From NCBI GenBank assembly GCA_041653675.1, contig JBAZEY010000001.1, positions 98 through 64,097 of the forward strand: DNA of 64,000 nt, in the 5' to 3' direction. Made by a program: the position numbers and the translations under genes. The notes beneath the pieces are model-generated. The model was not told the DNA's origin and did not search any database. It worked only from the letters and a program-made list of their open reading frames with translations. Shown one piece after another: positions 3,626 through 59,273 of the stretch. Source of the DNA: Patescibacteria group bacterium. GTDB taxonomy: Bacteria > Patescibacteriota > Patescibacteriia > XYB2-FULL-38-15. Numbering within the stretch: position 1 is the first letter of the stretch; each line of letters opens with the position of its first letter.

Positions 3626-3651
3626 TCTCTGAATTCGTTGATATAGAAAAA

Positions 3652-3687
3652 AGCAGGGCGCCCTCTCGGCGCCCTGCTTTGATTTTG
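3652..3687 (+). terminator. Rho-independent terminator (stem agcagggcgcc/ggcgccctgct followed by TTTGATTTT)
   Basis: Perfect 11-bp GC-rich stem with a 5-nt loop and a T-run, immediately after the stop at 3625. Confidence 0.7.
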
Positions 3688-3704
3688 TGGTAAAATAAAA
3701 TTGT

Positions 3705-3763
3705 CCCCGACTAAAGTCGGGACTCCGGCGAACGATTTGGACTCCTCACTTTAGTGAGGGTTG
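3705..3763. repeat. REP-like hairpin pair upstream of the RAYT gene (cccgac-TAAA-gtcggg + gactcc; cctcac-TTTA-gtgagg + gttg)
   Basis: Two 6-bp-stem, 4-nt-loop palindromes with a conserved GACTCC tail; the same units recur at 4311-4450. Confidence 0.7.
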
Positions 3764-3776
3764 AACACAGTAATAT

Positions 3777-4310
3777 ATGCCATACAGAGAATACCATCCG
3801 CCGCATCTATATTTTGATCAAACAATTTATTTTATAACTTGTCGCACAGTAAATAAAGAAAATTTTTTTGCAACCGATGCGCATAAGAATGTTTTATATT
3901 CCTGTCTAAGGACAGGACTCCAAAATTTTAATATTCCGATTTACGCTTTTGTTATTTTGGATAACCATTATCACTTGTTAATAAAAATACAAAAAGCCGG
4001 AGATTTGCCCCTATTTATTAAATATCTTAATGGTAAAAGTTCTTTTGAATTAAATAAATCGGAGAACGAACAGGGCCGGAAAATTTGGTACCAATATTTT
4101 GATCACACAATCCGCGACGAAGCTGATTTTTGGAAACATTTTAATTACATTCATCAAAATCCGGTAAAACACGGGTTCTGTAAAAATTTGAGGGAAGTTT
4201 TTGGTTATCCCTTTTCAAGCGCGAAAAGTTGGAGTAAAATAAAAGGAGAGGAATGGTTTGATTCTTGTTTTGAGTTGTATCCGATTGTTGATTTTACCGC
4301 GGGAGAATAA
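3777..4310 (+). CDS. REP-associated tyrosine transposase (RAYT; IS200/IS605 TnpA-like Y1 HUH enzyme)
   Basis: HUH motif HYHLL; C-terminal catalytic-Tyr region KIWYQYFDHTIRDEADFWKHFNYIHQNPVKHGF...YPFSS matches the TnpA_REP/Y1 transposase signature (IWQ..F.D..I....YI..NPV..G.V....W.YSS); flanked by REPs. Confidence 0.75.
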   Translation: MPYREYHPPHLYFDQTIYFITCRTVNKENFFATDAHKNVLYSCLRTGLQNFNIPIYAFVILDNHYHLLIKIQKAGDLPLFIKYLNGKSSFELNKSENEQGRKIWYQYFDHTIRDEADFWKHFNYIHQNPVKHGFCKNLREVFGYPFSSAKSWSKIKGEEWFDSCFELYPIVDFTAGE

Positions 4311-4450
4311 CCCCGACTAAAGTCGGAACTCCGCAGTCTCTCGGACTCCTCACTTTAGTGAGGGTTGGATCTACCCCGACTAAAGTCGGAACTCCAAATT
4401 TAATAATTTATTTAAAATTAAATTAAGTACCTGTCTAAAGACAGGACTCC
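4311..4450. repeat. Cluster of four REP-like hairpins (two cccgac/gtcgga units, one cctcac/gtgagg unit, one cctgtc/gacagg unit), each with a GACTCC/GAACTCC tail
   Basis: Hairpins at 4311-4332, 4343-4368, 4374-4395 and 4430-4450. All have a 6-bp stem and TAAA/TTTA loop; the last ends 9 nt before the ATG at 4460. Confidence 0.7.
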
Positions 4451-4459
4451 AAAAAACCT

Positions 4460-5128
4460 ATGACCAAAAAATTGAAAATTATTTTGATCGTCGTCGTTTT
4501 TATTTTAATCGCCGGCGGACTTCTCGTCTGGAAAACTTGGAATTGGCAAGGAAAGATGGGGGATTTAAGAAGTTATGTTACTTCCTTATTTTCTGGAGAA
4601 AAAGTAGAAGAATTACCGGCCGATGTTAAAGCGGCCTATGAAGCCTTGAAAAATGATCCGTCAAATACCAGCGCTTATATAAAAATTGCCGCTTGGAAAC
4701 GGGACCAAGGCCAATTGGCGGACGCGATTAAACTTTATGAATCAGCCTTAGAAGTGAAACCAGACGACACTTTGCTTTTAATGAATAGCGCCGAACTTTA
4801 TACGAGAAACGAGCAATATGCCGAGGCCGCGGGAGCGTATGTGAAAGTCATGGAAAGCAACCCGAAGTGGCTTGCCGCCTATCGCAGTTTAGCCGATCTT
4901 TATCGCTACCAAATGCCGGAAAGAAAAATTGAAATTCCGAGCATTTTAAAAAGGGGACTGGAAGCAAATTCGGAAAATGAAATTTATTTTGTCGCGCCGC
5001 TTGCCATTTATTACAAAGATTTCGGACCGGAAGACGAAGCGATTCGCTGGTACGAGCGGCTGCTTGAACTTGAACCCGGAAATCTCACGGCACAGAAAGA
5101 GTTGGAAGAATTAAAAAATAAACAATAA
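4460..5128 (+). CDS. TPR-repeat protein with N-terminal transmembrane anchor
   Basis: N-terminal hydrophobic helix ILIVVVFILIAGGLLVW followed by repeated 34-aa Ala/Tyr/Leu-rich TPR-like units (AYIKIAAWKRDQGQLADAIKLYESALEVKPDD...). Confidence 0.6.
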   Translation: MTKKLKIILIVVVFILIAGGLLVWKTWNWQGKMGDLRSYVTSLFSGEKVEELPADVKAAYEALKNDPSNTSAYIKIAAWKRDQGQLADAIKLYESALEVKPDDTLLLMNSAELYTRNEQYAEAAGAYVKVMESNPKWLAAYRSLADLYRYQMPERKIEIPSILKRGLEANSENEIYFVAPLAIYYKDFGPEDEAIRWYERLLELEPGNLTAQKELEELKNKQ

Positions 5129-5144
5129 ATAACGGTTAAAAATT

Positions 5145-6833
5145 ATGAAAAAAATCGTCTTCGCTCTGATTTTTCTTTTAACTATTCCTTGGATTCCGGT
5201 AGGAGCCGCGGAAACTATTACCGTCACGAATACTGGCGCGCCGGCCGTGATTTTCTATCCTTCAGAGTTTGATAAATTAGTTATGGATTTTACAATCGCG
5301 CGAACCGACGGAACAGCTGATGTTTTAAACGCCCTGACTTTGCAAAACGACGGCACGGCCTGGGGTTGGGATATTTCTAAAGTTGTTGTTTGGGCTGATG
5401 CCGGAGAGGCTGGCTTTCAGGGAATGGCGGTTGACGAAAAATTGGGCGAAGCAGTGCGCTACGAAACTGGCGGTTACTGGTATTTATCAGGATTGCAAAA
5501 AGCTGTGCCTGCATCCGGCCTTCGGATTTTTGTGAGTATTGAAACCGGATCAAAAGCCGTGATTACAGCCAACAGATCGGTCCAAATGAAAGTGCCTCTT
5601 CTTATTGACGGCGGAACGATTGGCCGGTTTGACCTCGGCGATTCGGGTTTATTTTTAGCCGGAGCCACTGGCACCGCGAGTGGAGTTGTAAATCCTTCAG
5701 CCCAGACCATCTGGGTTTCAAATTATGACACGAGCGCGCCCAAAACCGTGGTTACATCTCCCTCGGCCGGAACGATTATCACCACTTCAACTTTCAAAAT
5801 TACCGGCGTGGCGCGCGATCAAGGCGGTTCAACTTTGGCAACGCTTCAAATTCAAATTAACTCTGGGAGTACGGCCGGTTCTTGGGCAGATGTGACAAAT
5901 ACTGGAACAAATTATTCAACCTGGGAATATAATTGGACAAATATTGCCGACGGAACTTACACAATTAAAACGCAAGGCGCCGACTGGCTCGGCAATTCTG
6001 AAACAATCGGGCAGGGGACTACCGTAACAGTTGACCAAACCGCGACAACTTCGGCCTCCGCTTCTGCTTCCACGGTTTCCGCGACGCCCGCCACTCTTCC
6101 GGCCGACGGTTCAACCAGAACGTTTGTCAGCGTACTAGTTAAAAATTTAGTGGGCAGCGCACTTTCCGGAAAAACAGTTTCTTTAGTTTCCGATCGCTCA
6201 ACCGATAACATTATAGCTACCAAAGAAATAACTGGCGTGGACGGCCTGGCCACTTTTGAAGTAACGGGAACTGCGACCGGAGTTTCAACTTTGACCGCGA
6301 CAGTCGGCATCGTGACTTTAGACCAAAAACCGACTTTAACTTTTACCGCCGTTGCTTTTCACGCGGGAGATTTAATTAAAGGAACTGCGAGCACGGCCGT
6401 TTATTATTACGCAGATAACGGCAGAAGATATATTTTTCCGACCGCGGCGATTTATTCATCTTGGTTTACTGGTTTTTCTTCCATTAAAACAATCCCCGAC
6501 GCGGACCTCGCCGCCGTACCGACCTCCGGCAATGTTACTGTGCGGCCCGGAAAGTTGGTCCAGGTTGTCAGTATGGATACGCCCTGGCGCGTGATGGATC
6601 CGAAAGTTTACGCCGTGAGCCGCGGGGGAGTCTTGCGCTGGGTCAAAACCGCCGACGCGGCAAGCGCGATTTTTGGCACGGAATGGGAGAAGAGTATTGT
6701 CGCCGTGCCAGAGGTGTTTGTTACAAATTATAATTACGGAGCTGATATCAACATTGCCACGGATTACAATTTAGCGGCTGAGCAGGCGGTGGCAACAATT
6801 GACGAAGATAAAAGTGCGAGGGTGACGGATTAA
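5145..6833 (+). CDS. Secreted surface protein: signal peptide, invasin-type Ig domain (Big_1-like), shared C-terminal ~125-aa domain
   Basis: Signal peptide MKKIVFALIFLLTIPWIPVGAAE. The segment SVSATPATLPADGST...SGKTVSLVSDR...TGVDGLATFEVTGTATGVSTLTATV resembles Big_1. C-terminal YYYADNGRRYIFP...VRPGKLVQVVSMDTPWRVMDPKVYAV is shared with the paralogs. Confidence 0.7.
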   Translation: MKKIVFALIFLLTIPWIPVGAAETITVTNTGAPAVIFYPSEFDKLVMDFTIARTDGTADVLNALTLQNDGTAWGWDISKVVVWADAGEAGFQGMAVDEKLGEAVRYETGGYWYLSGLQKAVPASGLRIFVSIETGSKAVITANRSVQMKVPLLIDGGTIGRFDLGDSGLFLAGATGTASGVVNPSAQTIWVSNYDTSAPKTVVTSPSAGTIITTSTFKITGVARDQGGSTLATLQIQINSGSTAGSWADVTNTGTNYSTWEYNWTNIADGTYTIKTQGADWLGNSETIGQGTTVTVDQTATTSASASASTVSATPATLPADGSTRTFVSVLVKNLVGSALSGKTVSLVSDRSTDNIIATKEITGVDGLATFEVTGTATGVSTLTATVGIVTLDQKPTLTFTAVAFHAGDLIKGTASTAVYYYADNGRRYIFPTAAIYSSWFTGFSSIKTIPDADLAAVPTSGNVTVRPGKLVQVVSMDTPWRVMDPKVYAVSRGGVLRWVKTADAASAIFGTEWEKSIVAVPEVFVTNYNYGADINIATDYNLAAEQAVATIDEDKSARVTD

Positions 6834-7243
6834 GAGATTGTGGATAAGTTTCCTCTTGACCAACTCAGTTTTTCGTGATAAAATAAAAGAAGATTAAATT
6901 AATATGAAGTTAACCGTGCTTGTCGTTTCGCAAACGAGCGAATTAGTTTTAAGTTTCTCTAGGGGGAGAGACTTGTTTAATGCTTAATTTTTAGGCATTT
7001 TTTTGTTGTTTAACTAAGAATTTAACTAATAAATTTAATTAAATATAAACCTTACCCTGCGAGAAATTTATTCTGCGGGGAATAAGCGCTACGGCGCTTG
7101 AAATTCCGTCGCTCGTCCCAAATGTTCCGCCGAGGTGGACCACTTGCGGACTCGCTAGGAATTATAAAAAAGGCGAATTTCGGAATTAATTGCGAATAAT
7201 TTTATTCGCAGTTCTCAATTCTTGGTTCGTCGTTTCAAAAAAT

Positions 7244-10102
7244 ATGGCAGAAAGAATCAAAAAAGGCTTTTTCAAAGTATTGCCATTGTCGGTGGTAGTA
7301 TTTTTAGTGTTAGGCTTGGTGGTGTCCTTCACCATGCCAACTCCTCAAAATCTCGGAGTAGAGCCTGTGAAAGCAGCGGTTAACGGCGGCACTACGTCGG
7401 CTCTCTGGCTATTGGACACAAACGCAACTCCAAACGGAAAAATTGATAGAATCACTTTTAGTGTCCTTAACACGAGCGGAGATGCTTGGGCTTTGAATGT
7501 TGCCTTACCTTACGGGTTAAGCGTAACCCAGGCTGGCAATGCGATAACTATTTCGGCAGTTACTATCACGTCGATCGCCACCGCCAATCCAATTACTGTA
7601 CAAGTTGATTTAGATGAAAGTGACGCAGACTTACTCGTGAATACTGACGGTGTTACCACGGGAGCCATAGAATTAATCTATACTCCAGTCCTCTTCGCAA
7701 ACTGCGGCACAACAGCCAGTATTTGTGATACCGATGAAGAAATGAATGTCATTGCGACCGGCGATACCGGAGCAACTGATACTGAAGTTGATAAAGCCGC
7801 GCCGTATATGACTTCCGCAACTTATGGGGATTCCGACGCGGGTGGCAACGTTGACCGAGTTACTTTTGTCTTTTCCGAATCAACAACCTGGACCGCTATG
7901 ACCGCCGCGGATTGGGCATTCGGAGCTGGCGACATCGCTATAACAGGAGATTTTCTTATTGGTGACTGTACTGCCTCTCCATCTATAACCTATGTCTGTA
8001 CTGATGCGGCTAACGCTCATATTACCTCAACCGCCGATAGAACCGGTAAGCAGACTTTAGCGGGTATTGAACCAACCTTTACTTATACCAATAGCACTAA
8101 CGACATCAATGATGGCGCTGCTGCTAATAACACTGCCACTTTTGGGCCAAACTCCTTGGCTGATGGCGCCGCGCCATATTTCCTCTCTGCTATCTATTCA
8201 GATTCTACCGCTGACGGAAAAGTTGACCGCGTGGCTTTTGCCTTTTCTGAAGTGACGACCTTTAACGCGATTACTGCCGCGGACTGGGCATTTGGCGGAG
8301 GTGACATTGTCCTTAGTGGCGACTTTGCTCTCGCTGAATGCGTGGGTTCAGCCACCCTCACCACCGTTACCTGCACTGACGCTGGCACGGGAACAGTTGA
8401 CGCCACTGCTTCAAGAACCGGCAAACAAACTTTAGCAGGCATTGAACCAACTATTACTTATACTAATGGCACTAATGACATTAGAGATGCCTCCTCCAAT
8501 AATACTGCCACTTTTGGTCCAACATCCTTGGTTGATGGCGCAGCTCCAGTCTTTGTGACCACCTCTCCGGCTGACGGCGCGACAGGCGTGGCCCTGGACG
8601 CGAGTATGGTTATTACTTTCTCCGAGACGATGACCGAGGCCTCTGTTACAGGCGCGATTACCAGAGCTCCAGCATTTACTCTCGGCACGGCATCATGGAA
8701 TGCGGCGAGCATAATTCTTACTTACTCCGCTCACGACGCTTTTGCCGGCATGCAGAACTACATCATCACCTTAGCCGGAACAATCGCCTCAGCGGCCGCA
8801 ACTGACGGAAATCTTGGGACTGGTCCGGTAGCAAATCCTTTTGACTTCACTACGGTCGCGGCTTCTAGCGGCGGAGGAGGCGCTGCAACATTACCCGCGT
8901 CTATCACTGTCACAACTCCGAACGGCGGCGAAATTTTGACCGGAGGAGGAACTTACAGCATCACCTGGTCGGCTGTTAGTAATACCGACCCGGTTAGCAT
9001 TTATTATTCAACTGACAGCGGCATAAATTTCCTGAACACCATAGCTACGGACGAAACGAACGATGGTTCTTACACCTGGACTGTTCCGAACGTTGCCACG
9101 AGCGCGGCCAAGGTTAAAGTAGTGAGCGGCAGTTTGAATGATATTTCTGATTCCAACTTTACTATCACTTACTCTACTTCCGCGGTTTCCACTTCCACCT
9201 CCACAGTTGTTGCTTCCCCGACTTCAGTGACGGCCAACGGAACTTCCAAATCAACTGTCACAGTCACCGTCAAAGACTCGAGTTCTAATCTGCTTTCTGG
9301 TAAAGTCGTGACCCTTGCTTCTTCTCGCGGCACTTCCGATACGGTTACGACCGTGACCGGCACAACCGGCACTAACGGCGTCGCCACTTTTGAAGTCAAA
9401 TCAAGCACGGCTGGCACTTCAACTTACACGGCTACTGCCGCGGGCGTAGTTCTAACTCAAACCGCTTCAGTCTCCTTTGCCGCTCCCGGCACGCCTGGTG
9501 AAACTCCAGTTTCTCTTAGTGTCGGAGACTTGATTAAGAGCAGTCTCAGCTCTTCGGTCTATTACTATGGTTCCGACGGCAAACGCCATGTCTTCCCGAA
9601 TGAAAAGACTTACAAGAGTTGGTATGTGGATTTCACCGGCATCAAAACTATTTCCGCCTCTCAACTCCAGGGCATCACTCTTGGCAAAAATGTCACGGTC
9701 CGTCCCGGCACGGTGCTCGTCAAAATCCAGACTGATCCCAAGGTCTACGCCGTTGAACCAGGCGGGCTCCTTCGCTGGGTTCCGACCGAAGCTCGTGCCA
9801 CCACTCTTTACGGCTCCTCTTGGGCCTCAAAGATCATTGATGTTCCAGTCATCTTCTGGGTTGACTACACCTTTGGCACTGACATTACGACCGACAAACA
9901 TCCGACCGGCGCCTTGGTCCAATATACTGGTTCAACTGAAAAATATTACATCCAGGGCACGGAAAAGCGTTTGATCTCCACTGCCGGCTTCACCGCCAAC
10001 AAATTCCAGTTGTCCAATGTCCTTACTGTCCCAACTACCATTACCTACACAACTGGCACGGCTCTCTCAGCCGAGGAGACAGCGCTATCTAGAATTTACT
10101 AG
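7244..10102 (+). CDS. Giant surface protein paralog. Modules: signal anchor, two tandem ~131-aa DGAAP modules, Big_5-like, compact beta-sandwich (GPI/Kre9-like pattern ITWS...YSTDSG...DGSYTWTVP), Big_1-like, shared C-terminal domain.
   Basis: The ORF track starts at 7190, but the conserved N-terminus MAERIKKGFFKVLPLSVVVFLVLGL, identical in pattern to the 10281 gene, begins at ATG 7244. Domain motifs are read directly from the translation. No SD. Confidence 0.7.
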   Translation: MAERIKKGFFKVLPLSVVVFLVLGLVVSFTMPTPQNLGVEPVKAAVNGGTTSALWLLDTNATPNGKIDRITFSVLNTSGDAWALNVALPYGLSVTQAGNAITISAVTITSIATANPITVQVDLDESDADLLVNTDGVTTGAIELIYTPVLFANCGTTASICDTDEEMNVIATGDTGATDTEVDKAAPYMTSATYGDSDAGGNVDRVTFVFSESTTWTAMTAADWAFGAGDIAITGDFLIGDCTASPSITYVCTDAANAHITSTADRTGKQTLAGIEPTFTYTNSTNDINDGAAANNTATFGPNSLADGAAPYFLSAIYSDSTADGKVDRVAFAFSEVTTFNAITAADWAFGGGDIVLSGDFALAECVGSATLTTVTCTDAGTGTVDATASRTGKQTLAGIEPTITYTNGTNDIRDASSNNTATFGPTSLVDGAAPVFVTTSPADGATGVALDASMVITFSETMTEASVTGAITRAPAFTLGTASWNAASIILTYSAHDAFAGMQNYIITLAGTIASAAATDGNLGTGPVANPFDFTTVAASSGGGGAATLPASITVTTPNGGEILTGGGTYSITWSAVSNTDPVSIYYSTDSGINFLNTIATDETNDGSYTWTVPNVATSAAKVKVVSGSLNDISDSNFTITYSTSAVSTSTSTVVASPTSVTANGTSKSTVTVTVKDSSSNLLSGKVVTLASSRGTSDTVTTVTGTTGTNGVATFEVKSSTAGTSTYTATAAGVVLTQTASVSFAAPGTPGETPVSLSVGDLIKSSLSSSVYYYGSDGKRHVFPNEKTYKSWYVDFTGIKTISASQLQGITLGKNVTVRPGTVLVKIQTDPKVYAVEPGGLLRWVPTEARATTLYGSSWASKIIDVPVIFWVDYTFGTDITTDKHPTGALVQYTGSTEKYYIQGTEKRLISTAGFTANKFQLSNVLTVPTTITYTTGTALSAEETALSRIY
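7778..8566 (+). repeat. Intragenic tandem duplication: two ~393-bp (131-aa) DGAAP modules
   Basis: DKAAPYMTSATYGDSDAGGNVDRVTFVFSE...RTGKQTLAGIEPTFTYTN and DGAAPYFLSAIYSDSTADGKVDRVAFAFSE...RTGKQTLAGIEPTITYTN are near-identical at the aa level. Confidence 0.7.
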
Positions 10103-10122
10103 AACTTAGATAGATTAGAAAA

Positions 10123-29054: not shown

Positions 29055-29462
29055 ATGGACTGCATTTTTTGTAAAATCATCAAGGGAGAATTGCCTTCAG
29101 TTAAAGTTTATGAAAATCATAAAGTGGTTGCGTTTTTGGATATTAATCCGGTGAATCCCGGCCACACGCTTGTTGTCCCAAAAGAGCATTTTGAAAATTT
29201 GCTTGATGGAGGCGATGAAATTCTAAAAGAAATTATGCTCACGATAAAAAAAGTTGCTTGGGGCGTAACGAAAGCATTTGATCTAAAGGGTTTTAATGTC
29301 GGCCAAAATAACGGCGCGATCGCCGGCCAGGTTGTGCCGCATTTGCATTGGCACATTATTCCGCGGTTTGAAAATGATGGGCTGGAGGCATGGTCCAGAA
29401 AAGAATATGGGGAAGGGGAGATGGCGGAAGTTGGAGAAAAAATTAGAAAAGAAATTGTATGA
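29055..29462 (+). CDS. HIT-family (histidine triad) nucleotide hydrolase
   Basis: HTLVVPKEH...HLHWHIIPR (HxHxHxx motif). Confidence 0.8.
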   Translation: MDCIFCKIIKGELPSVKVYENHKVVAFLDINPVNPGHTLVVPKEHFENLLDGGDEILKEIMLTIKKVAWGVTKAFDLKGFNVGQNNGAIAGQVVPHLHWHIIPRFENDGLEAWSRKEYGEGEMAEVGEKIRKEIV

Positions 29463-30007
29463 AAAAATGGGAAAAATTAAGTGAAGAAATTTTGCACAAA
29501 AATCCGTGGTGGACATACAGGCACGAAAAATATGTATTACCAAACGGCAAAGAAGGAAATTATTATTACATGCACACAAATGGTGGCGCATTAGTGATTC
29601 CGGTTTTAGATGATGGGCGGATTGTTATGGTTAGACAGCGGCATTATCTTTTCAAACGAGAAAGCATAGAGTTTCCCAGGGGTGGAGTGAAAGAAAACCA
29701 ATCTTATGAAGAGGCGGCGCGCGCCGAATTTGAGGAAGAAGCCGGTTACAAGGTCGGCGAACTACGTTTGATTGGGGAGATAGCTCCAAATATTGGGTTA
29801 GATGATGAGATAATGAAAATATTTTTGGCGAAAAAATTGGAGAAGACAAAGAGCCATCCTGACGAGACTGAGGAAATTGAAATTTTATTTAAGACGCCGG
29901 AAGAAATCGATAAAATGGTAGAAACAAATGAAATTTGGGACGGCCAAGTTTTGGCGGCATGGGCCTTGGCAAGAAAATATTTTATAAAGGGCAAAGCCCT
30001 GTGTTGA
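29459..30007 (+). CDS. NUDIX hydrolase (ADP-ribose pyrophosphatase-like)
   Basis: Nudix box GGVKENQSYEEAARAEFEEEAGY; ATGA overlap with the HIT gene. Confidence 0.75.
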   Translation: MKKWEKLSEEILHKNPWWTYRHEKYVLPNGKEGNYYYMHTNGGALVIPVLDDGRIVMVRQRHYLFKRESIEFPRGGVKENQSYEEAARAEFEEEAGYKVGELRLIGEIAPNIGLDDEIMKIFLAKKLEKTKSHPDETEEIEILFKTPEEIDKMVETNEIWDGQVLAAWALARKYFIKGKALC

Positions 30008-30068
30008 CTGCGCTCGTTCGGAAATGAAAATAAAATTTTCGTTTCTCTCACTCGCTTGTCAATAAAAA
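30002..30068. repeat. ~65-bp hairpin-forming intergenic repeat, copy R1
   Basis: tgttgactgcgctcgttcggaaatgaaaataaaattttcgtttctctcactcgcttgtcaataaa. Homologous copies lie at 49756-49819 and 58842-58908. The core stem is gaaatgaaaa/ttttcatttc. Confidence 0.65.
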
Positions 30069-30076
30069 ATAAAAAT

Positions 30077-31090
30077 ATGAATTTATTAGTTTGTGGCGGA
30101 GCGGGGTTTATCGGTTCAAACTTTGTCCGGCAAATGTTAAAAAAATATCCGGATTACAAAATCGTAAATTACGATAAGCTGACTTACGCCGGCAATTTGG
30201 ATAATCTGCTCGACGTGGAAAAAAATCCAAACTACACTTTTGTCCGGGGTGATATTTGTGATTTAGAAAAGTTAAACCAAGTTATTGCCGAGCATAAAAT
30301 TAGCCATGTAATTAATTTTGCGGCGGAAACGCACGTTGACCGCTCCATCCACGGCGGCTGTAAAGATTTTGTTATGACTAATACTTTGGGTGTGCAGATG
30401 ATTTTGGACGCCGTGCGGGCCAATAGTATAGAAAAGTTTGTGAATGTTTCAACTGACGAAGTTTACGGCGCTCTTGGGCTTGATGAGGATAGAAAATTTA
30501 CGGAAATCACGCCAATCTGGCCCAATATGCCTTATGCCGCGGCCAAAGCCGGAGGAGATTTAATGTGCAATGCTTATTTTGTCACTCATAAAGTTCCGGT
30601 CGTGGTTACACATTGTTCTAATAATTATGGCCCGTATCAATTCCCCGAAAAAATAATTCCGTATTTTATTTTCCGACTGTTCGGCGGACAAAAAGTTCCG
30701 GTTTACGGCGATGGCTTGTATGTCCGCGACTGGATCCACGTGACCGATCACGCGGCCGCTCTTGATTTACTGCTTCATAAAGGCGTCGTGGGTGAGGTTT
30801 ATAATATCGGCGTTGATAATGAACGCAGTAATATGGAGATTACCAAGATGATGTTAAAAATTATGGGCAAGGGGGAAGAAATGATTGAACACGTGACTGA
30901 CCGGCCGGGACACGATCGCCGTTATGCGATTGATGCGTCAAAAATTTTGGCGTTAGGATGGAACCCGGAATATGGCCGCGATAAATTTGAACAAGGTTTG
31001 CGCGAGACTGTGGAATGGTATTTGGCAAATAAAGAATGGGTGGAAAAATTACAAAAAAGAAAAGAAGAATTAAATCCACACATTAAATAA
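30077..31090 (+). CDS. rfbB: dTDP-glucose 4,6-dehydratase
   Basis: MNLLVCGGAGFIGSNF Rossmann, YAAAKAGGD (YxxxK), YTFVRGDICD. The ORF-track start at 30056 is a TTG inside repeat R1; ATG 30077 is preferred. Confidence 0.8.
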   Translation: MNLLVCGGAGFIGSNFVRQMLKKYPDYKIVNYDKLTYAGNLDNLLDVEKNPNYTFVRGDICDLEKLNQVIAEHKISHVINFAAETHVDRSIHGGCKDFVMTNTLGVQMILDAVRANSIEKFVNVSTDEVYGALGLDEDRKFTEITPIWPNMPYAAAKAGGDLMCNAYFVTHKVPVVVTHCSNNYGPYQFPEKIIPYFIFRLFGGQKVPVYGDGLYVRDWIHVTDHAAALDLLLHKGVVGEVYNIGVDNERSNMEITKMMLKIMGKGEEMIEHVTDRPGHDRRYAIDASKILALGWNPEYGRDKFEQGLRETVEWYLANKEWVEKLQKRKEELNPHIK

Positions 31091-49602: not shown

Positions 49603-49625
49603 AAAAAATGACCCGGCTGGGGCTC
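49603..49625. repeat. Direct repeat of the tRNA-Lys 3' end plus flank (aaaaaatgacccggctggggctc)
   Basis: Identical 23-mer at 49813-49835, which overlaps the 3' acceptor/T-arm of tRNA-Lys; the two copies are 210 bp apart. Confidence 0.65.
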
Positions 49626-49755
49626 TCACTGCTCGTTCGCTTTTGCTCTCTGCGCTTTAAAACCCATCGGTTTTAATATTTCCGCAAATCAGGAAACTCC
49701 CGTTTCCCGACCCCTTCCCTATTCGAGCCCAGCCAAAAATTAGCAAATACTGCGT

Positions 49756-49819
49756 GTTATCATCGCTCGTTCGGAAATGAAATAAATTTCATTTCTCTCG
49801 CTCGCTTGATAATAAAAAA
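49756..49819. repeat. ~65-bp hairpin repeat, copy R2
   Basis: tgttatcatcgctcgttcggaaatgaaataaatttcatttctctcgctcgcttgataataaaaaat. It abuts the 3' end of tRNA-Lys and lies inside the 210-bp segment bounded by the tRNA-derived direct repeats. Confidence 0.6.
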
Positions 49820-49892
49820 TGACCCGGCTGGGGCTCGAACCCAGGACCCTCTGCTTAAAAGGCAGATGCTCTACCAGCTGAGCTACCGGGTC
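49820..49892 (-). tRNA. tRNA-Lys (anticodon UUU)
   Basis: Minus-strand GACCCGGUAGCUCAGCUGGUAGAGCAUCUGCCUUUUAAGCAGAGGGUCCUGGGUUCGAGCCCCAGCCGGGUCA. 7-bp acceptor, D/anticodon/T arms and T-loop UUCGAGC all form; 73 nt. Confidence 0.9.
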
Positions 49893-49993
49893 ATAATCAA
49901 ATTTTAAAAAAAGAACGAGGAAGTCGTTAATAGCCGTTTTAGTCTTAATTTGATATAATAATACCAAGGCATTTTATTTTTGGCAAGGGTTTT

Positions 49994-55293: not shown

Positions 55294-57258
55294 ATGCCAG
55301 AACGAATGCCACAATTTGAGTGCCCAAAATGTGGAGGGGGTCATGAACCCGGGATCTGTCCGCAAGAAATTACCGAGTCAAAAGAAGAAGGAGCTTTGGG
55401 GCCGAAAGAACAGGCGAAGCAAAGAAGAGTTCAAAAGAAACTAGAAGCCAGCTTGTCAGCGGATAAGATTTTCGAAGTACGAGACATCATTAGTTTGGCG
55501 GAAAGGAAAAACATTCCTTTGGATTTTTCTAAACCAGAAATTGCCGCTGCTCTCCAGAAAGGACTAGAAGTTTGTTTATTAGAGCACAATGGTGCCTTTT
55601 TCGATCAGATTGTTAGTATGGCAGAAAGAAAAAACATTCCTTTGGATTTTTCTAAACCAGAAATTGTCGCTGCTCTCCAGAAAGTAGTAGAAGGCGAATT
55701 GGTTAGGGGCGCAGTTTATATTGCCGTACTGAATATCGGCTTGGCGGAAAGAAAAAACATTCCTTTGGATTTTTCTAAACCAGCAATAGTTTCTGCCCTC
55801 CAAAAATTTTTGGATTCAAGCAACGATATCGGCAGACTTAAAGAAGTAGTAGACTTGGCGGAAAATAAAAACATTCCTTTGAAAGTTACGAAAGCGATAA
55901 AAAGACTGCTGCAAATAGGTCGCGCGGATGATACTGAAACAAAAAAATCTTTTGGTTTGCCGGAAATAGAGAAGAGAGACACCTTGGAGGTCCAAATTGA
56001 TTCAGGGATTGATAGAGAATTTTTAGAGGCTTATTTTGGCGGGGCAGATAAAGAAAAGATTGCGCAGCATGTTGAGGGGTTGATTCCTAAAGAAATTAAC
56101 AACTTGGTCAGACAAGTCTTTATTAAGAAAAAGAAGGCAGATGAAAGGGTTTGGTCGGACGGCAGAAGGATTAGCGCGTCAGGAAGTTATGATATACACC
56201 AGGGGACAATCTCGCTTTATGTGGAAAACGGTGGTCATCTTGAAACAGTGTTATGGCACGAGTTTGGCCATGCCGTAATGTTTGGGGAAGGAATTGAAAA
56301 AGAGGCGGGGGAATTACACAGAAAATTTTTTGATGCAGTAAGGCAACAATCAACAAATTTTTTATCAACTTATGCGATGGACACTTACCGGGAAGAGGGA
56401 GCTGCAATAGGCTTGCATGAGGATTTTGCTGAGACGTTTAATTTCTTTTTTACAGATCCGGAATTATTAAAAGAAAAAAATCCTGAGCGTTTTCAGGCGA
56501 TGAGCCAAATAATTAACGAATTGTTCCCCAGCCTTGACGTCGAGGGTGCCCGTATGGCAACAAAACAAAGGGAGCGGGAGCGTCAGGCGAGAGAAAAACA
56601 ATCACCAAAAATTTGTCGTACTTTTTTTGAAGAAGTTAGCAATAACGCAGCCCTCGCCGAAGGCGTTAAATTATTTCCAACTTTTGATTTTAGATTTTTA
56701 GATTTTTTGCAATCGCGAGGCAGTCCGAAATCAATTGTGCAGAGGCGGACAGAAGCGGGGATAGGGATAACTATAAGCGCTCATTACGGAGAGGATGGTG
56801 AATTGAGAGAAGAAATAATAGAAGAAGGAGGGCGTCGGACAGAAGTATTTTTTGAGCCAAAATATGACAAAAGAAGAAACACGCTTCGCTCTTATAAAAC
56901 AACAGATTCATGGACGGGCGAAGTGTTATTAGTGCAGTTATCATATAGGGATAATGAGTCTCTTCCATCCGAGATAGAGATAATTAAGCCGGAAACCGGC
57001 AAACGCGTTGGAGTTGTCACTTACCAACAATCAAAAGGGAAATTAATAGAGAGGTTTGTATTAGAGGGTGGCGGTGAGAGCAAAAGCGTTTACAAATTTG
57101 ATAAAAGTAAAAAAATCAGTTCTGTGCGCGGTATGATCAAGAATCAAGTTATTTTGGAACGCACTTACGAGTACGACCGAAAAGGTAGGCTTTCGTCTAA
57201 AAATTTATTAAATCATTTGGGGCGCTCTTTGAAGAAAATTAATTATAAATATGACTGA
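55294..57258 (+). CDS. Multidomain hypothetical protein: N-terminal zinc ribbon (CPKCGGGHEPGIC), four 41-aa tandem repeats, HExxH zinc-metallopeptidase-like motif (WHEFGHAV), C-terminal YD-repeat-like segment (YEYDRKGRL)
   Basis: Motifs read directly from the translation; there are no TM helices or signal peptide. Confidence 0.5.
   Translation: MPERMPQFECPKCGGGHEPGICPQEITESKEEGALGPKEQAKQRRVQKKLEASLSADKIFEVRDIISLAERKNIPLDFSKPEIAAALQKGLEVCLLEHNGAFFDQIVSMAERKNIPLDFSKPEIVAALQKVVEGELVRGAVYIAVLNIGLAERKNIPLDFSKPAIVSALQKFLDSSNDIGRLKEVVDLAENKNIPLKVTKAIKRLLQIGRADDTETKKSFGLPEIEKRDTLEVQIDSGIDREFLEAYFGGADKEKIAQHVEGLIPKEINNLVRQVFIKKKKADERVWSDGRRISASGSYDIHQGTISLYVENGGHLETVLWHEFGHAVMFGEGIEKEAGELHRKFFDAVRQQSTNFLSTYAMDTYREEGAAIGLHEDFAETFNFFFTDPELLKEKNPERFQAMSQIINELFPSLDVEGARMATKQRERERQAREKQSPKICRTFFEEVSNNAALAEGVKLFPTFDFRFLDFLQSRGSPKSIVQRRTEAGIGITISAHYGEDGELREEIIEEGGRRTEVFFEPKYDKRRNTLRSYKTTDSWTGEVLLVQLSYRDNESLPSEIEIIKPETGKRVGVVTYQQSKGKLIERFVLEGGGESKSVYKFDKSKKISSVRGMIKNQVILERTYEYDRKGRLSSKNLLNHLGRSLKKINYKYD
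55498..55930 (+). repeat. Four tandem 123-bp repeats (41 aa: AERKNIPLDFSKPEIAAALQK...)
   Basis: A core of about 60 nt, ggcggaaag(g)aaaaacattcctttggatttttctaaaccagaaattg.cgctgctctccagaaag, recurs at 55498, 55621 and 55744 with a degenerate fourth copy at 55858. Confidence 0.7.
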
Positions 57259-57518: not shown

Positions 57519-58835
57519 ATGAATCCAAAAGAAATAATCAAAAAATTTATTCCGGGATTTTTACTCCGGTGGTATCATAAAACTCTCGCGTTGGCGGCAA
57601 ATATTTTTTATGGTTTTCCGTCAAATAAATTAATAGTGATTGGCGTGACGGGAACAAATGGAAAATCAACGACCGTGCATCTGATTTCCAAAATGTTTGA
57701 AGGCGCGGGATACAAAGTCGGCGCGACTTCCACGGTTGGTTTTAAAATTGCGACTGAGGAATGTTTGAATAAGAAAAAGATGACTATGCTCGGCCGGTTT
57801 GCTTTGCAAAAATTATTGCGGAAAATGGTCGCGGCCGGTTGCCGGTACGCCGTGATTGAAACTTCGTCGCAGGGGGTGGAACAGTTTCGCCACTTGGGCG
57901 TAAATTATGACGTGGCGGTTTTTACCAATTTAACGCCGGAACACATTGAAGCGCACGGCGGCTTTGAAAATTACAAAAAAGCCAAAGGAAAGTTTTTCGC
58001 GCATCTTACGGCCAAGCCGCGTAAAGTGATCGACGGGAAAGCAGTGCCGAAAGTTAGCGTAGTAAATCTTGACGACGAGCACGCAAAATATTTCGCGGAA
58101 TTTCCGGCGGATGAAAAAATTGGTTACAGCATAAAAAATCAGGTGGATGTCCGGGCGGAAAATGTGGTGTTAAAAAATAGTGGCGCGGATTTTACGGTTC
58201 GCGGTATACCGTTTCATTTAAATTTGTTGGGGGAATTCAATGTTTATAATGCGCTAGCGGCCGTGGCGGTCGGGTTGTCGCAAGGATTGCCACTGGAAAA
58301 TATTTCAAAATCGTTGGAAAAAATTGGCGGAGTTCCGGGCAGAATGGAATTTATTAATGAAGGACAAAATTTTAAAGTTTTAGTTGATTATGCGCCAGAG
58401 CCGGCATCAATGAAAAAACTTTATGAAACAGTTCGCGGCTCAGGGTTTATAACTTCCGGCGGAAAAATTATTCATGTGTTAGGTTCAGCCGGTGGCGGGC
58501 GCGATAAATCTCGTCGGCCGATTTTGGGAAGAATCGCCGGTGAGAATGCCGATTATGTTATAATTACGAACGAAGATCCTTATGATGAAAATCCGGAAGA
58601 AATTATAAATCAGGTGGCAGCTGGGGCGGCGGGAAAAGAAGAAAATGTAAATTTATTCAAAATTTTAGATCGTGGCGAGGCAATCGCCAAAGCCTTGAAT
58701 CTCGCTCGCGAAAATGATTTAGTGATCATCACCGGCAAGGGATCAGAGCAGGCGATTTGCGTAGCCAACAATAAAAAAATTCCCTGGGATGACCGGGAAA
58801 AGATTAGGGAAATTTTGAAAAATAGGGGGCATTAA
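57519..58835 (+). CDS. Mur ligase family enzyme, most consistent with UDP-MurNAc-tripeptide synthetase (MurE-like)
   Basis: P-loop VIGVTGTNGKSTT, central domain TNLTPEHIEAHGGFENYKKAKGKFF, C-terminal Mur ligase domain. The MurE versus MurC/MurF assignment is tentative. Confidence 0.6.
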   Translation: MNPKEIIKKFIPGFLLRWYHKTLALAANIFYGFPSNKLIVIGVTGTNGKSTTVHLISKMFEGAGYKVGATSTVGFKIATEECLNKKKMTMLGRFALQKLLRKMVAAGCRYAVIETSSQGVEQFRHLGVNYDVAVFTNLTPEHIEAHGGFENYKKAKGKFFAHLTAKPRKVIDGKAVPKVSVVNLDDEHAKYFAEFPADEKIGYSIKNQVDVRAENVVLKNSGADFTVRGIPFHLNLLGEFNVYNALAAVAVGLSQGLPLENISKSLEKIGGVPGRMEFINEGQNFKVLVDYAPEPASMKKLYETVRGSGFITSGGKIIHVLGSAGGGRDKSRRPILGRIAGENADYVIITNEDPYDENPEEIINQVAAGAAGKEENVNLFKILDRGEAIAKALNLARENDLVIITGKGSEQAICVANNKKIPWDDREKIREILKNRGH

Positions 58836-58841
58836 GCCCCA

Positions 58842-58908
58842 TGTTGACTGCGCTCGCTCGGAAGTGAAAATAAAATTTTCATTTCTCTCGCTCGCTTGTC
58901 AATAAATT
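58842..58908. repeat. ~65-bp hairpin repeat, copy R3
   Basis: tgttgactgcgctcgctcggaagtgaaaataaaattttcatttctctcgctcgcttgtcaataaatttt; follows a small GC hairpin (ggggcattaagcccc) at the murE stop. Confidence 0.65.
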
Positions 58909-58916
58909 TTAATTTT

Positions 58917-59273
58917 ATGGCAGAAAATATACGAAGAGAAGGAGAAAGAAAAAGAACGCCGGAAGAGATAGCCGAGGGAACTTTAATGGCTGGATTTGCC
59001 AGCGATCCTTTAACGCCCGAAGAAATAGAGCGGGTCTTCCGCAACCTTAAAAATGAAGGAGTTAATCCAGATGTTGGTCAAGTTGTCCGTAAGGTGTTGA
59101 AACGTATGGTCGCCGTCCATTCTGCCGATCGAGAAGCTGTAAGTTTAATCGCTTTCTGCAAATTGCATAATATCCCATATGAGGACGATTATAGTGCGGA
59201 AGAACTCGAGAGAATGGGAAGATTTTATAATTATGGAGTAGAAGCATGGATGGATCTATTATCGGGAAAATAA
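58917..59273 (+). CDS. Hypothetical protein (118 aa)
   Basis: ATG 58917 is preferred; the track start 58896 is a TTG inside repeat R3. Confidence 0.35.
   Translation: MAENIRREGERKRTPEEIAEGTLMAGFASDPLTPEEIERVFRNLKNEGVNPDVGQVVRKVLKRMVAVHSADREAVSLIAFCKLHNIPYEDDYSAEELERMGRFYNYGVEAWMDLLSGK

What the first reader, a model, noticed from the sequence alone, without database searches (positions are those of the whole stretch)
30002..30068. ~65-bp hairpin repeat family (R1/R2/R3) positioned at gene 3' ends, abutting downstream start codons
Three copies occur at 30002, 49756 and 58842, with consensus tgttgactgcgctcgttcggaaatgaaaataaaattttcatttctctcgctcgcttgtcaataaa. The central 10-bp stem is gaaatgaaaa/ttttcatttc plus imperfect extensions.

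- R1 overlaps the stop of the NUDIX gene and ends 9 nt before the rfbB ATG.
- R3 follows murE and ends 9 nt before the next ATG.
- R2 abuts the 3' end of tRNA-Lys.

In both R1 and R3 the ORF finder extended the downstream gene into the repeat via a TTG codon, which is an artefact. No T-run follows the stem, so the element is not a classic intrinsic terminator. It may be an RNA processing site, a stability element, a protein-binding site or a small MITE.
Basis: seen in the sequence. Interest (0 to 1): 0.55.

Follow-up and report, generated by a model that had tools for sequence, protein, structure and literature searches.

The report
Mobile hairpin repeat of Patescibacteria
The three repeats are real and are copies of a small mobile DNA hairpin that recently inserted at gene ends in this candidate-phyla-radiation (CPR) genome; near-identical copies occur across most CPR lineages, and the enzyme that moves them is unknown.

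Summary
Three copies lie on the + strand: R1 29987-30064, R2 49750-49814, R3 58825-58904. A fourth, divergent copy lies at 7085-7166.

**Architecture.** They consist of:
- a small 5' hairpin (P0);
- a 7-bp outer stem (P1);
- an asymmetric internal loop, GCTCGYTC / CTCRCTCGC. It is invariant in the copies collected, but the search pattern required it, so its conservation is only partly an independent observation;
- a variable apical stem (P2).

Both stems covary strongly: 92.5% of cells pair, against about 50% for shifted controls.

**Mobility.** All three copies are absent from the orthologous sites of close relatives (82-90% protein identity). One relative carries a copy at a site that is empty in the window. 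Each insertion follows 5'-ATA, ends in ATA and is followed by A.

**Distribution.** About 170 copies were collected, nearly all from Patescibacteria and at non-orthologous sites. They sit beside housekeeping genes, never beside a transposase.

**Strand and orientation.**
- Orientation to the neighbouring genes is only weakly biased.
- G.U and A.C mismatches are equally common, whatever the orientation.

There is therefore no sign of selection on an RNA fold.

**Verdict.** This is a non-autonomous MITE/REPIN-like mobile element, probably recognised as a folded single strand. The RNA processing or stability reading is at best a side effect. It matches no Rfam family and I found no description in the literature searched.

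The parts
29987..30064 (+). Copy R1, whole inserted element (78 nt). P0 29987-30001; P1 30002-30008 with 30058-30064; conserved loop strands GCTCGTTC 30012-30019 and CTCACTCGC 30047-30055; P2 30020-30031 with 30035-30046.
   Evidence: Sequence. CM hit at 85 bits. The site is empty in L071, where the NUDIX stop is 11 nt from the rfbB ATG. Orthologous NUDIX proteins are 175-177 aa and end ..YFIK or similar; the window protein is 182 aa and ends ..YFIKGKALC.
49750..49814 (+). Copy R2, whole inserted element (65 nt). It has a short 5' stub CTGCG instead of a P0 hairpin. P1 49755-49761 with 49808-49814; P2 49773-49782 with 49787-49796.
   Evidence: Sequence. CM hit at 83 bits. Empty site in L067: GCAAATA|AAAAATGACCC. 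Filled site in the window: GCAAATA|CTGCGTGTTATC...GATAATA|AAAAATGACCC.
58825..58904 (+). Copy R3, whole inserted element (80 nt). P0 GGGGGCATTAAGCCCC 58825-58840; P1 58842-58848 with 58898-58904; P2 58860-58871 with 58875-58886.
   Evidence: Sequence. CM hit at 86 bits. Empty sites are AAAAAATA|AATTTTAATTTTATG in L067 and the equivalent in L068. The window has GAAAAATA|GGGGGC...GTCAATA|AATTTTAATTTTATG.
7085..7166 (+). Fourth, divergent family member. P0 AGCGCTACGGCGCT; P1 GAAATTCC/GGAATT; GTC-GCTCG ... CTCGC-TAG; a different apical stem; preceded by ATA and ending in ATA.
   Evidence: CM hit at 22 bits, E = 0.002. Read by eye. Found by a regex scan for stem plus motif. The same subfamily occurs at a non-orthologous place in L068:506-597.
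58822..58824 (+). ATA immediately 5' of R3. It is the target or junction trinucleotide. The equivalents are 29984-29986 (R1), 49747-49749 (R2) and 7082-7084 (fourth copy).
   Evidence: Filled/empty alignments. The last three nt of P1 are ATA in 107 of 148 distinct copies, and the next two nt are AA in 81 of 148. A flank triple, ATA in 71 cases, closes a hairpin over P0 in 104 of 142 copies, against 37-48% of controls.
30005..30007 (+). Stop codon (TGA) of the NUDIX gene (29459-30007). It is supplied by P1 of R1, and the last 5 codons (GKALC) are encoded by the element.
   Evidence: ORF list. Orthologue C-termini.
58833..58835 (+). Stop codon (TAA) of murE (57519-58835). It is supplied by the P0 loop of R3. 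The C-terminus changed from ..KNKF* in relatives to ..KNRGH*.
30077..30079 (+). True ATG of rfbB, 12 nt after R1. The TTG at 30056 is an ORF-finder artefact inside the element.
58917..58919 (+). True ATG of the small gene after murE, 12 nt after R3. The TTG at 58896 is an artefact.
49819..49893 (-). tRNA-Lys(UUU). Its 3' end faces the 3' end of R2, 5 nt away.
   Evidence: ARAGORN. Rfam, 73 bits.

Best explanation
The repeats are copies of a small (65-90 bp), non-coding, non-autonomous mobile DNA element of the MITE / REPIN kind. The family is common in Patescibacteria (CPR).

Shown:
- Each window copy is a discrete insertion that close relatives lack.
- Insertion is into A/T-rich spacers at or inside the last codons of genes, or just beyond a tRNA. 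It occurs right after 5'-ATA and before A, and the element itself ends in ATA.
- Two helices (P1, P2) are kept by Watson-Crick covariation.
- The asymmetric internal loop GCTCGYTC / CTCRCTCGC is kept at the sequence level in the copies collected, partly by construction of the search pattern.
- No copy has a transposase next to it.

Inferred:
- The element is moved in trans by an enzyme that reads a folded single strand or an extruded hairpin. The invariant loop would be the protein contact and the stems the scaffold.
- The trinucleotide T(G/A)T at the foot of P1 can pair either with the left-flank ATA (closing over P0) or with the element's own 3' ATA. This would mark the two joining points. 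It resembles guide / cleavage-site pairing in IS200/IS605 'peel-and-paste' transposition by an HUH Y1 transposase.
- My probability that it is a mobile non-autonomous element is about 0.8. My probability that the mover is an HUH-type single-strand enzyme is only about 0.25-0.3.

Consequences for the host (partly shown):
- The element supplies new stop codons (murE, NUDIX).
- It places a stable hairpin a few nt before the next start codon.
- P0 plus the A-rich target reads as an intrinsic terminator on the opposite strand.
For: Four independent filled/empty pairs:
- R3 and R2 against L067/L068.
- R1 against L071.
- The reciprocal case: L069:2279-2369 is filled where the window, L067 and L070 are empty.
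Every junction reads ...ATA|element...ATA|A.

Structure:
- 92.5% of cells pair, against 49-55% for slid controls.
- 160 cells have changes on both sides, against 40 +/- 5 in shuffles (0 of 500 shuffles reach the observed value).

Distribution:
- 65 loci in species-representative genomes, nearly all Patescibacteria: Saccharibacteria, Paceibacterota, Adler-, Falkow-, Gracili-, Kaiser- and Sungbacteria.
- The element is the only stretch, apart from one gene at about 68% identity, that is alignable at DNA level between the window and these loci.
- The flanking genes are not orthologous.
- Identical core variants occur in different genomes at different loci.
- A tandem dimer joined ...GATAATA|AAGGG... 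occurs at L011:809-965.

Neighbours: housekeeping genes such as enolase, SecY, aaRS, ribosomal proteins and Hsp70. No transposase or integrase family is enriched.

Orientation:
- left neighbour co-oriented 85:57; right neighbour 73:68;
- convergent 26 against divergent 13;
- GC skew 65:46, not significant.

No RNA-type wobble tolerance:
- In the freely varying pairs, G.U = 43 and A.C = 51.
- The G.U/A.C ratio is the same in sense and antisense copies, odds ratio 1.0.

Left-end hairpin: the flank triple plus P0 plus T(G/A)T closes a hairpin in 104 of 142 copies, against 37-48% of controls.
Against: - No mobilising enzyme was found. None of about 170 copies is next to a transposase, and no longer autonomous relative was seen.
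- The one Y1/HUH gene in the window is a RAYT at 3777-4307 (NF047646, 106 bits). It is flanked by a different repeat family.
- The 5' end of the element is not an inverted repeat of the 3' end, so it is not a classical TIR-type MITE.
- Whether ATA (or TA) is a true target-site duplication or a required target 5' of the element cannot be decided from the four junctions.
- Conservation of the loop sequence across very distant lineages, including a 71% GC Marmoricola contig (L022), is unusual for a purely selfish repeat. It could mean a host function.
- A mild excess of sense orientation, 72 of 112 against the local coding strand (p = 0.003), leaves room for some selection at the RNA level.
- The functional strand is unresolved. 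The fixed G.T pairs favour the + strand. Two tandem G.A pairs make the - strand the more stable RNA in 122 of 148 copies.
- The loop invariance is partly circular, because copies were collected with a pattern that requires it. Model-only hits show that GGAA/TTCT can be replaced.
Confidence: 0.72

Rival explanations
1. It is a cis-acting RNA element, selected at gene boundaries for its effect on the transcript. The candidate roles are an RNase III-type processing site, a 3'-end stabiliser, a terminator or an insulator. Mobility would be only the means by which it spreads.
For: - The hairpin is stable: -17 to -22 kcal/mol, z = -3 to -5.4.
- When the upstream gene is co-oriented, its stop lies a median of 28 nt before P1 and the next start a median of 7.5 nt after it.
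- In Saccharibacteria-type copies the downstream ATG is part of P1.
- There is a mild excess of sense orientation.
- P0 plus the A-rich flank is terminator-like on the - strand.
- Neighbours are often highly expressed genes.
- REP and Correia elements are known to have such side effects (established knowledge).
Against: - About 40% of copies are antisense to their neighbours.
- G.U is not preferred over A.C, and the ratio does not follow the transcribed strand.
- Close relatives function without the element at the same junctions, with spacers of 4-11 nt.
- It matches no Rfam family.
- No T-run follows the main stem.
Confidence: 0.13
2. It is a DNA site for a conserved host protein and spreads secondarily. 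Candidates are a nucleoid or segregation protein, a gyrase/IHF-like binder as at E. coli BIMEs, or a folded recombination site used by a universal tyrosine recombinase, as with integron attC or the CTX phage attP(+).
For: - The loop sequence is invariant across very distant lineages while the stems vary.
- The overall plan resembles attC: basal stem, unpaired central region, second stem, variable tip.
- The joining point is at the base of the stem.
- Gracilibacteria copies, and a related 146-nt unit in the window, are bounded by direct repeats of a tRNA 3' end, which is an integrase-like signature.
Against: - The integron R-box consensus (GTTRRRY / RYYYAAC), a nearby integrase and cassette arrays were not apparent in the sequences I read.
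- Insertion sites are dispersed (ATA|A), not at a single att or dif site.
- The binding protein is unknown.
- tRNA proximity for the family as a whole is only about twice background.
Confidence: 0.1
3. It is a self-contained small RNA gene read on the - strand: a long hairpin with two tandem G.A motifs, then the reverse complement of P0 and a U-run as its own terminator. It would spread by an RNA intermediate, like a SINE, primed at A-rich targets.
For: - The - strand is the more stable RNA in 122 of 148 copies.
- P0 on the - strand plus the T-run is terminator-like.
- One end (P1-ATA) is precise and the other (P0) is variable or truncated, with lengths of 4-7 or 13-20 nt.
- Targets are A-rich.
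- 14 of the 19 tRNA-adjacent copies lie on the strand opposite to their nearest tRNA.
Against: - No promoter is conserved. The candidate -10 would lie inside P1, which covaries and therefore must be present in the folded molecule.
- No reverse transcriptase is linked to any copy.
- There is no clear G.U excess on either strand.
- No bacterial precedent is known.
Confidence: 0.05

Closest known systems
REP / REPIN elements mobilised by RAYT (REP-associated tyrosine transposase), e.g. in E. coli and Pseudomonas
   Same: - Short, non-coding, multi-copy hairpin-forming repeats in extragenic spacers, often at gene 3' ends and between convergent genes.
- Found in either orientation and sometimes in tandem.
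- Structure is kept by compensatory change.
- Moved in trans.
- Can affect mRNA ends.
   Different: - It has no GTAG-type 5' tetranucleotide.
- It is 65-90 nt long, with a long conserved asymmetric internal loop.
- The RAYT present in this window (3777-4307) is flanked by its own, different REPs, of the form stem-CTAAAG-stem-RACTCC.
- REP families are species- or genus-specific, whereas this core is shared across phylum-level CPR lineages.
IS200/IS605-derived non-autonomous elements (PATEs and similar) that transpose as single-stranded DNA
   Same: - The ends are asymmetric and lack terminal inverted repeats.
- There is a hairpin at each end (P0 and P1/P2).
- Insertion is immediately 3' of a short specific sequence (ATA).
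- A foot-of-hairpin trinucleotide could pair with both joining sites, like the guide / cleavage-site pairing of IS608.
   Different: - No cognate TnpA and no full-length IS with these ends was found.
- A strand bias relative to replication was not demonstrated: 65:46, not significant.
- The hairpin reaches the very end of the element instead of lying subterminally.
Correia elements (CREE/NEMIS) of Neisseria
   Same: - About 100-bp intergenic mobile repeats with a TA at both junctions.
- They are close to or overlap gene ends and are co-transcribed as hairpins.
- No transposase is known.
   Different: - Correia elements have 26-bp terminal inverted repeats and an IHF site.
- They are confined to one genus.
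- Here the ends are not inverted repeats, and the conserved part is an internal loop.
Integron attC sites
   Same: Both are folded single-strand sites with a basal stem, an unpaired central part, a second stem and a variable tip. In both, the crossover is at the base of the stem and the site lies at gene 3' ends.
   Different: The R-box consensus, an integrase and cassette arrays were not apparent here. In this family the loop is conserved in sequence, whereas attC sites are conserved in structure only.

Membership tests
MITE (DDE-transposon-derived) | Small, non-coding and multi-copy, with insertion polymorphism | tested here: met
   - 65-90 bp.
- 4 copies in 64 kb.
- About 170 copies collected.
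- Four filled/empty pairs.
MITE (DDE-transposon-derived) | Terminal inverted repeats at both ends | tested here: not met
   The 3' end is the P1 strand, but the 5' end is P0 (or a 5-nt stub), which has no inverted partner. The P1 sequence itself covaries freely rather than being conserved.
MITE (DDE-transposon-derived) | Target-site duplication | tested here: inconclusive
   ATA (at least TA) is present at both junctions in all four events. However, the 3' ATA also pairs within P1, so it may belong to the element.
MITE (DDE-transposon-derived) | A related autonomous IS with the same ends | tested here: not met
   No transposase family appears among the neighbours of about 170 copies. There are no matches in plasmids, phages or viral contigs.
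REP/REPIN-RAYT | A cognate RAYT gene flanked by the same repeat | tested here: not met
   The RAYT at 3777-4307 is flanked only by CTAAAG-type REPs. No covariance-model hit lies near it.
REP/REPIN-RAYT | A 20-40-nt imperfect palindrome with a conserved 5' tetranucleotide (GTAG-like) | tested here: not met
   The hairpin is 65 nt or longer. The conserved part is the internal loop GCTCGYTC/CTCRCTCGC.
IS200/IS605-type single-strand element | No TIR, a hairpin at each end, and insertion 3' of a fixed short target without duplication | tested here: inconclusive
   The architecture and the ATA target are compatible. Duplication cannot be told apart from target reuse.
IS200/IS605-type single-strand element | Orientation tied to the replication direction (lagging-strand template) | tested here: inconclusive
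   Local GC skew gives 65:46, p = 0.11, and is confounded with gene strand. Complete genomes are needed.
IS200/IS605-type single-strand element | A Y1 HUH transposase that cleaves the ends | not testable with these tools
   This needs biochemistry or a genome-wide co-occurrence analysis.
Intrinsic (Rho-independent) terminator | A GC-rich stem directly followed by a U-run on the transcribed strand | tested here: not met
   On the + strand the main hairpin is followed by A-rich sequence. Only P0 read on the - strand qualifies.
Any Rfam 15 RNA family | Score at or above the family gathering threshold | tested here: not met
   Only tRNAs reach threshold in the window. The best sub-threshold hit over R1 is 15 bits against a threshold of 61.
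Structured cis-regulatory RNA (general) | A fixed orientation to the regulated gene, and G.U tolerated over A.C on the transcribed strand | tested here: not met
   About 40% of copies are antisense. G.U = 43 against A.C = 51. The odds ratio for sense against antisense copies is 1.0.
Integron attC | R''/R' boxes RYYYAAC...GTTRRRY, cassette arrays and an intI gene nearby | not tested
   No consensus scan was run. By eye the P1 strands are TGTTGAC/GTCAATA or TGTTATC/GATAATA and covary. Copies are dispersed among housekeeping genes, and no integrase family is among the common neighbours.

The most novel reading that the evidence does not exclude
This would be one structured mobile module, with the invariant loop GCTCGYTC / CTCRCTCGC held between two free-to-vary stems. 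It would be read by a still unidentified enzyme or host factor shared by most Patescibacteria, and by at least one actinobacterium. The same module would drive two insertion modes. One is the short form, which enters ATA|A sites. The other is a 150-190-nt form, which enters tRNA 3' ends with a 17-25-nt duplication (Gracilibacteria tRNA-Ser; window tRNA-Lys). That would be a new transposition or recombination system, single-strand DNA or RNA-mediated, and not a derivative of any known IS family.
Probability: 0.2. Interest if true: 0.8.

Novelty: new variant of a known kind. Interest (0 to 1): 0.55.

Why it matters
CPR/Patescibacteria genomes are small and streamlined and are usually thought poor in repeats. 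Here a recently active mobile repeat shares one core from Saccharibacteria to Gracilibacteria. That has four practical consequences.

1. It is a ready marker for recent insertion and excision in population metagenomes.
2. It is a source of annotation errors. It creates false TTG starts and alters gene C-termini, as seen for rfbB, murE and NUDIX in this window.
3. It may cause contig breaks in MAGs. L047 has inverted copies near both contig ends.
4. It gives a handle for finding the enzyme that reads it. The invariant loop is a defined ligand for pull-downs, and cultivated Saccharibacteria make the test possible.

If the mover proves to be new, it would add a mobility mechanism. If it is an HUH enzyme, the family extends REP/IS200 biology to the CPR.

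Tried and rejected
- **Rfam.** Gathering and E-value modes over the window, R1 and the tRNA-Lys region returned only tRNAs.
- **Other collections.** The exact core pattern has 0 hits in viral contigs. BLAST against plasmids and phages gave no match.
- **Literature.** I searched the core sequence, CPR with RNA motif, MITE, REP and RAYT. Nothing relevant turned up.
- **Linked transposase or integrase.**
  - All-against-all clustering of neighbouring ORFs and a Pfam scan of 120 immediate neighbours found housekeeping genes only.
  - The recurrent neighbour groups are shared or hot-spot sites, not mobility genes.
- **The window's own RAYT as mobiliser.** Rejected, because it carries its own distinct REPs.
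- **'G.U pairs prove a + strand RNA'.** This was my first reading from R1 and R3 and from column 26/97. I withdrew it after counting 148 copies:
  - wobbles are confined to fixed positions;
  - G.U is about equal to A.C elsewhere, independent of gene orientation;
  - the - strand is usually the more stable fold.
- **Sigma-70 promoter inside the element.** TTGAC(T/A)-16-GAAAAT appears only in the TTGAC subfamily, and it lies in covarying positions.
- **Special link to tRNA genes.** Proximity is only about twice background.
- **Replication-strand bias.** Local GC skew is not significant.
- **L004 (Nitrospiraceae).** This is a chance pattern match inside an ORF, with no covariance-model hit.
Full report
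**1. The observation**

The three copies exist where stated, all on the + strand.
- A 44-nt core pattern with up to 3 mismatches finds R1 and R3, with none in 100 shuffles.
- The repeat finder aligns R1 and R3 over 86 nt at 86% identity, and links all three over the 3' half.
- A covariance model built later scores them at 83-86 bits, E about 1e-21. It finds no other strong copy in the window.
- It also gives a weak hit at 7077-7169 (22 bits). On inspection this is a divergent member with the same plan: P0 hairpin, 6-7-bp outer stem, GTC-GCTCG ... CTCGC-TAG, preceded by ATA and ending in ATA.
- The same subfamily occurs in a relative at a different locus (L068:506-597).

**2. Anatomy**

A scan of one genome per species for GCTCG-N-TCGGAA-N14-30-TTCTCTC-N-CTCGC gave 65 loci. 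Seventy sequences were aligned. The unit consists of:
- **P0**: a small hairpin, often GC-rich, with loop types TATTAA or CTTCG. It is absent in a short subfamily that includes R2.
- **P1**: 7 bp.
- **An asymmetric internal region**: 5' NNC-GCTCGYTC and 3' CTCRCTCGC-TN.
- **P2**: GGAA/TTCT plus a variable stem, and a loop.

For P1 and P2, 92.5% of cells pair, against 49-55% when the 3' partner is slid. There are 160 cells with changes on both sides, against 40 +/- 5 in shuffles; 0 of 500 shuffles reach the observed value (RNAalifold agrees).

The internal region can be drawn as a helix with two tandem U.C/C.U mismatches on the + strand, which are two tandem G.A pairs on the - strand. Its invariance is partly imposed by the search pattern. 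Model-only hits show that GGAA/TTCT can be replaced, while GCTCG...CTCGC and P1 remain.

**3. It is an insertion**

murE orthologues place the window in a Falkowbacteria-like lineage.

| Site | Relative (protein identity) | Empty site | Filled site |
|---|---|---|---|
| R3, murE 3' end | L067 (murE 87%), L068 (murE 90%); syntenic, 4 nt between murE and the next gene | AAAAAATA\|AATTTTAATTTTATG | window: GAAAAATA\|GGGGGCATTAAGCCCCATGTTGAC...GTCAATA\|AATTTTAATTTTATG |
| R2, tRNA-Lys 3' end | L067 | GCAAATA\|AAAAATGACCC | window: GCAAATA\|CTGCGTGTTATC...GATAATA\|AAAAATGACCC |
| R1, NUDIX 3' end | L071 (NUDIX 82%); 11 nt between NUDIX and rfbB | see note below | window: R1 |
| murG 3' end | L069 (murE 81%) carries an 86-bit copy | window, L067, L070: GAGATA\|AAAAAAACAAGG | L069: AAGATA\|AAAAGTATTAC...GATAATA\|AAAAAACAAGG |

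- No model hit exists in L067.
- For R1, orthologous NUDIX proteins are 175-177 aa and end ..YFIK or similar. The window protein is 182 aa and ends ..YFIKGKALC, with the extra residues encoded by P0 and P1.
- The R1 empty site in L071 has 5 nt (AAATG) more than the window's flank, so that junction is only approximate.
- The fourth row is the reciprocal case: the relative is filled where the window is empty.

In every case the element follows ATA, ends in ATA and is followed by A. Over 148 distinct copies the last three nt of P1 are ATA in 107, and the next two are AA in 81. A head-to-tail dimer joined ...GATAATA|AAGGG... occurs at L011:809-965.

**4. Distribution and context**

- The genome loci come almost entirely from Patescibacteria: Saccharibacteria, Paceibacterota, Adler-, Falkow-, Gracili-, Kaiser- and Sungbacteria, and 'Patescibacteria group'.
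- A few carry other labels: Elusimicrobia, Bacteroidetes and Gammaproteobacteria MAGs. One, L022, is a 71% GC Marmoricola contig. It is a convincing copy (56 bits, P1 ACGTCT/AGACGT) between convergent genes.
- L004 (Nitrospiraceae) is a chance match.
Viral contigs, plasmids and phages have none.
- Apart from one gene at about 68% identity, the element is the only DNA alignable between the window and the genome loci, at up to 98% over the core. The flanking genes are not orthologous.
- Neighbours are ordinary housekeeping genes, and no mobility gene is enriched.
- Some intergenic sites recur in different genomes, but with different variants or orientations. This points to hot spots and turnover, not inheritance.

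**5. Orientation and strand**

Over 168 copies:
- the left neighbour is co-oriented in 85 and opposed in 57 (p = 0.02);
- the right neighbour is co-oriented in 73 and opposed in 68;
- contexts are convergent 26, divergent 13, tandem-sense 50 and tandem-antisense 27;
- the element matches the local coding strand in 72 of 112 (p = 0.003);
- local GC skew is 65:46, not significant.

My first reading was that G.U pairs mark a + strand RNA. It did not survive a larger count.
- Wobbles are concentrated at two fixed positions.
- In the freely varying pairs G.U = 43 and A.C = 51.
- The ratio is identical in sense and antisense copies, odds ratio 1.0.
- The - strand is the more stable RNA in 122 of 148 copies.

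So the stems behave as DNA palindromes kept complementary in the lineages that transpose, and they decay neutrally afterwards. There is no signature of an RNA under selection.

**6. How it probably works**

Shown:
- discrete insertion;
- the ATA|A junctions;
- conservation of structure;
- conservation of the loop sequence, partly imposed by the search pattern;
- action in trans.

Inferred:
- An enzyme recognises a folded single strand or an extruded hairpin. The invariant loop would be its contact surface.
- The T(G/A)T at the foot of P1 can pair with the element's 3' ATA, forming the outer P1 pairs. Alternatively it can pair across P0 with the left-flank ATA.
- Such a left-end hairpin closes in 104 of 142 copies, against 37-48% of control anchors. 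The criterion is loose.
- One trinucleotide could thus define both joining points, as guide sequences do in IS608.

This favours an HUH/Y1 'peel-and-paste' type of mechanism, but the enzyme is not identified. The window's RAYT (3777-4307; NF047646 at 106 bits, PF01797) has its own REPs.

Side effects:
- new stop codons for murE and NUDIX;
- a hairpin of -17 to -22 kcal/mol 12 nt before the next ATG;
- P0 plus the A-rich target forms a terminator-like site on the - strand.

**7. Comparison with known kinds**

The closest relatives in kind are REP/REPIN-RAYT elements, IS200/IS605-derived non-autonomous elements, Correia elements and, structurally, integron attC sites.
- It fails the defining tests for a TIR-type MITE: the ends are not inverted repeats and no parent IS was found.
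- It fails the tests for a REP: no GTAG-type box, and the RAYT present is not flanked by this repeat.
- It does not look like attC by eye, though no consensus scan was run.
- It matches no Rfam family.
- I found no description in the literature searched.

I therefore class it as a new variant of a known kind: a structured, non-autonomous mobile repeat. It is unusual for its phylogenetic breadth and for its conserved asymmetric loop.

**8. Verdict**

Interest is moderate (0.55). The finding is a real, apparently undescribed, recently active mobile element family in CPR bacteria, with an unknown mover.

Noticed in passing
window 3700-4450 (gene 3777-4310, + strand): A REP-associated tyrosine transposase (RAYT) gene: NF047646 at 106 bits, PF01797 Y1_Tnp. 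It is flanked by its own REP cluster, with units of the form stem-CTAAAG-stem-(A/G)ACTCC at about 3706-3727, 4311-4333, 4373-4395 and 4430-4450. Inverse-type units GGACTCCTCACTTTAGTGAGGGTTG lie at about 3740-3765 and 4343-4368, and a similar, imperfect unit lies inside the gene. No other copy of this REP occurs in the 64 kb.
   Followed up: partly
L067:1918-2451: In a relative, a homologous RAYT (55% identity) sits between ftsW and murG inside the dcw cell-division cluster. It is flanked by the same REP type (CAGGCTAAAGCCTGAACTCC). L069 has nothing at that junction, and L070 has a NUDIX gene there.
   Followed up: partly
window 49609-49819: - A 146-nt segment (211 nt with R2) is bounded by a 23-25-nt direct repeat of the tRNA-Lys 3' end (AAATAAAAAATGACCCGGCTGGGGC).
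- It is present in the window and L067 but absent in L069 and L070. It looks like an older small insertion at a tRNA 3' end with an att-like duplication.
- It contains a GCTCG-hairpin-CTGCGC module (about 49631-49657) that resembles the element's core.
- It has no Rfam match.
   Followed up: partly
L005:3750-4127 and L059:2796-2960 (Gracilibacteria): - The exact conserved core lies in a unit of about 170-190 nt just 3' of tRNA-Ser genes, antisense to the tRNA.
- In L005 the 189-nt unit is tandemly duplicated. The boundary between the two units carries a 17-nt copy of the tRNA-Ser 3' end, and the outer end carries a shorter (about 10-nt) remnant.
- P1 is not formed, and the fold is better on the tRNA-sense strand.
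   Followed up: partly
L022:1489-1578: A convincing copy (56 bits) lies in a 71% GC contig labelled Marmoricola (Actinobacteria), between convergent genes. Its stems are adapted to high GC. Either the family reaches beyond Patescibacteria or the contig is mis-assigned.
   Followed up: partly
L047 (8.7-kb contig), copies at 587-685 (-) and 7829-7927 (+): Two identical copies in inverted orientation sit near both ends of a short contig, each inside a long open frame. One frame of the element is fully open (IKGIKPFDISARSE...SLARLIIK). This suggests gene fusions, in-frame insertions, or assembly breaks at the repeat.
   Followed up: no
window 55490-55893: A 123-nt-period tandem repeat of 3-4 units at 78-95% identity lies inside the 654-aa ORF 55294-57258. 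That ORF sits two genes upstream of murE and has no Pfam hit in the relative L066.
   Followed up: no
window 1-17700: Several long, diverged direct repeats occur here, for example 9524-9823 against 12603-12902 at 81% and 7243-7368 against 10280-10405 at 83%. A 63-nt motif is repeated at 2, 6405, 12642 and 14809. They probably indicate a cluster of paralogous large genes.
   Followed up: no
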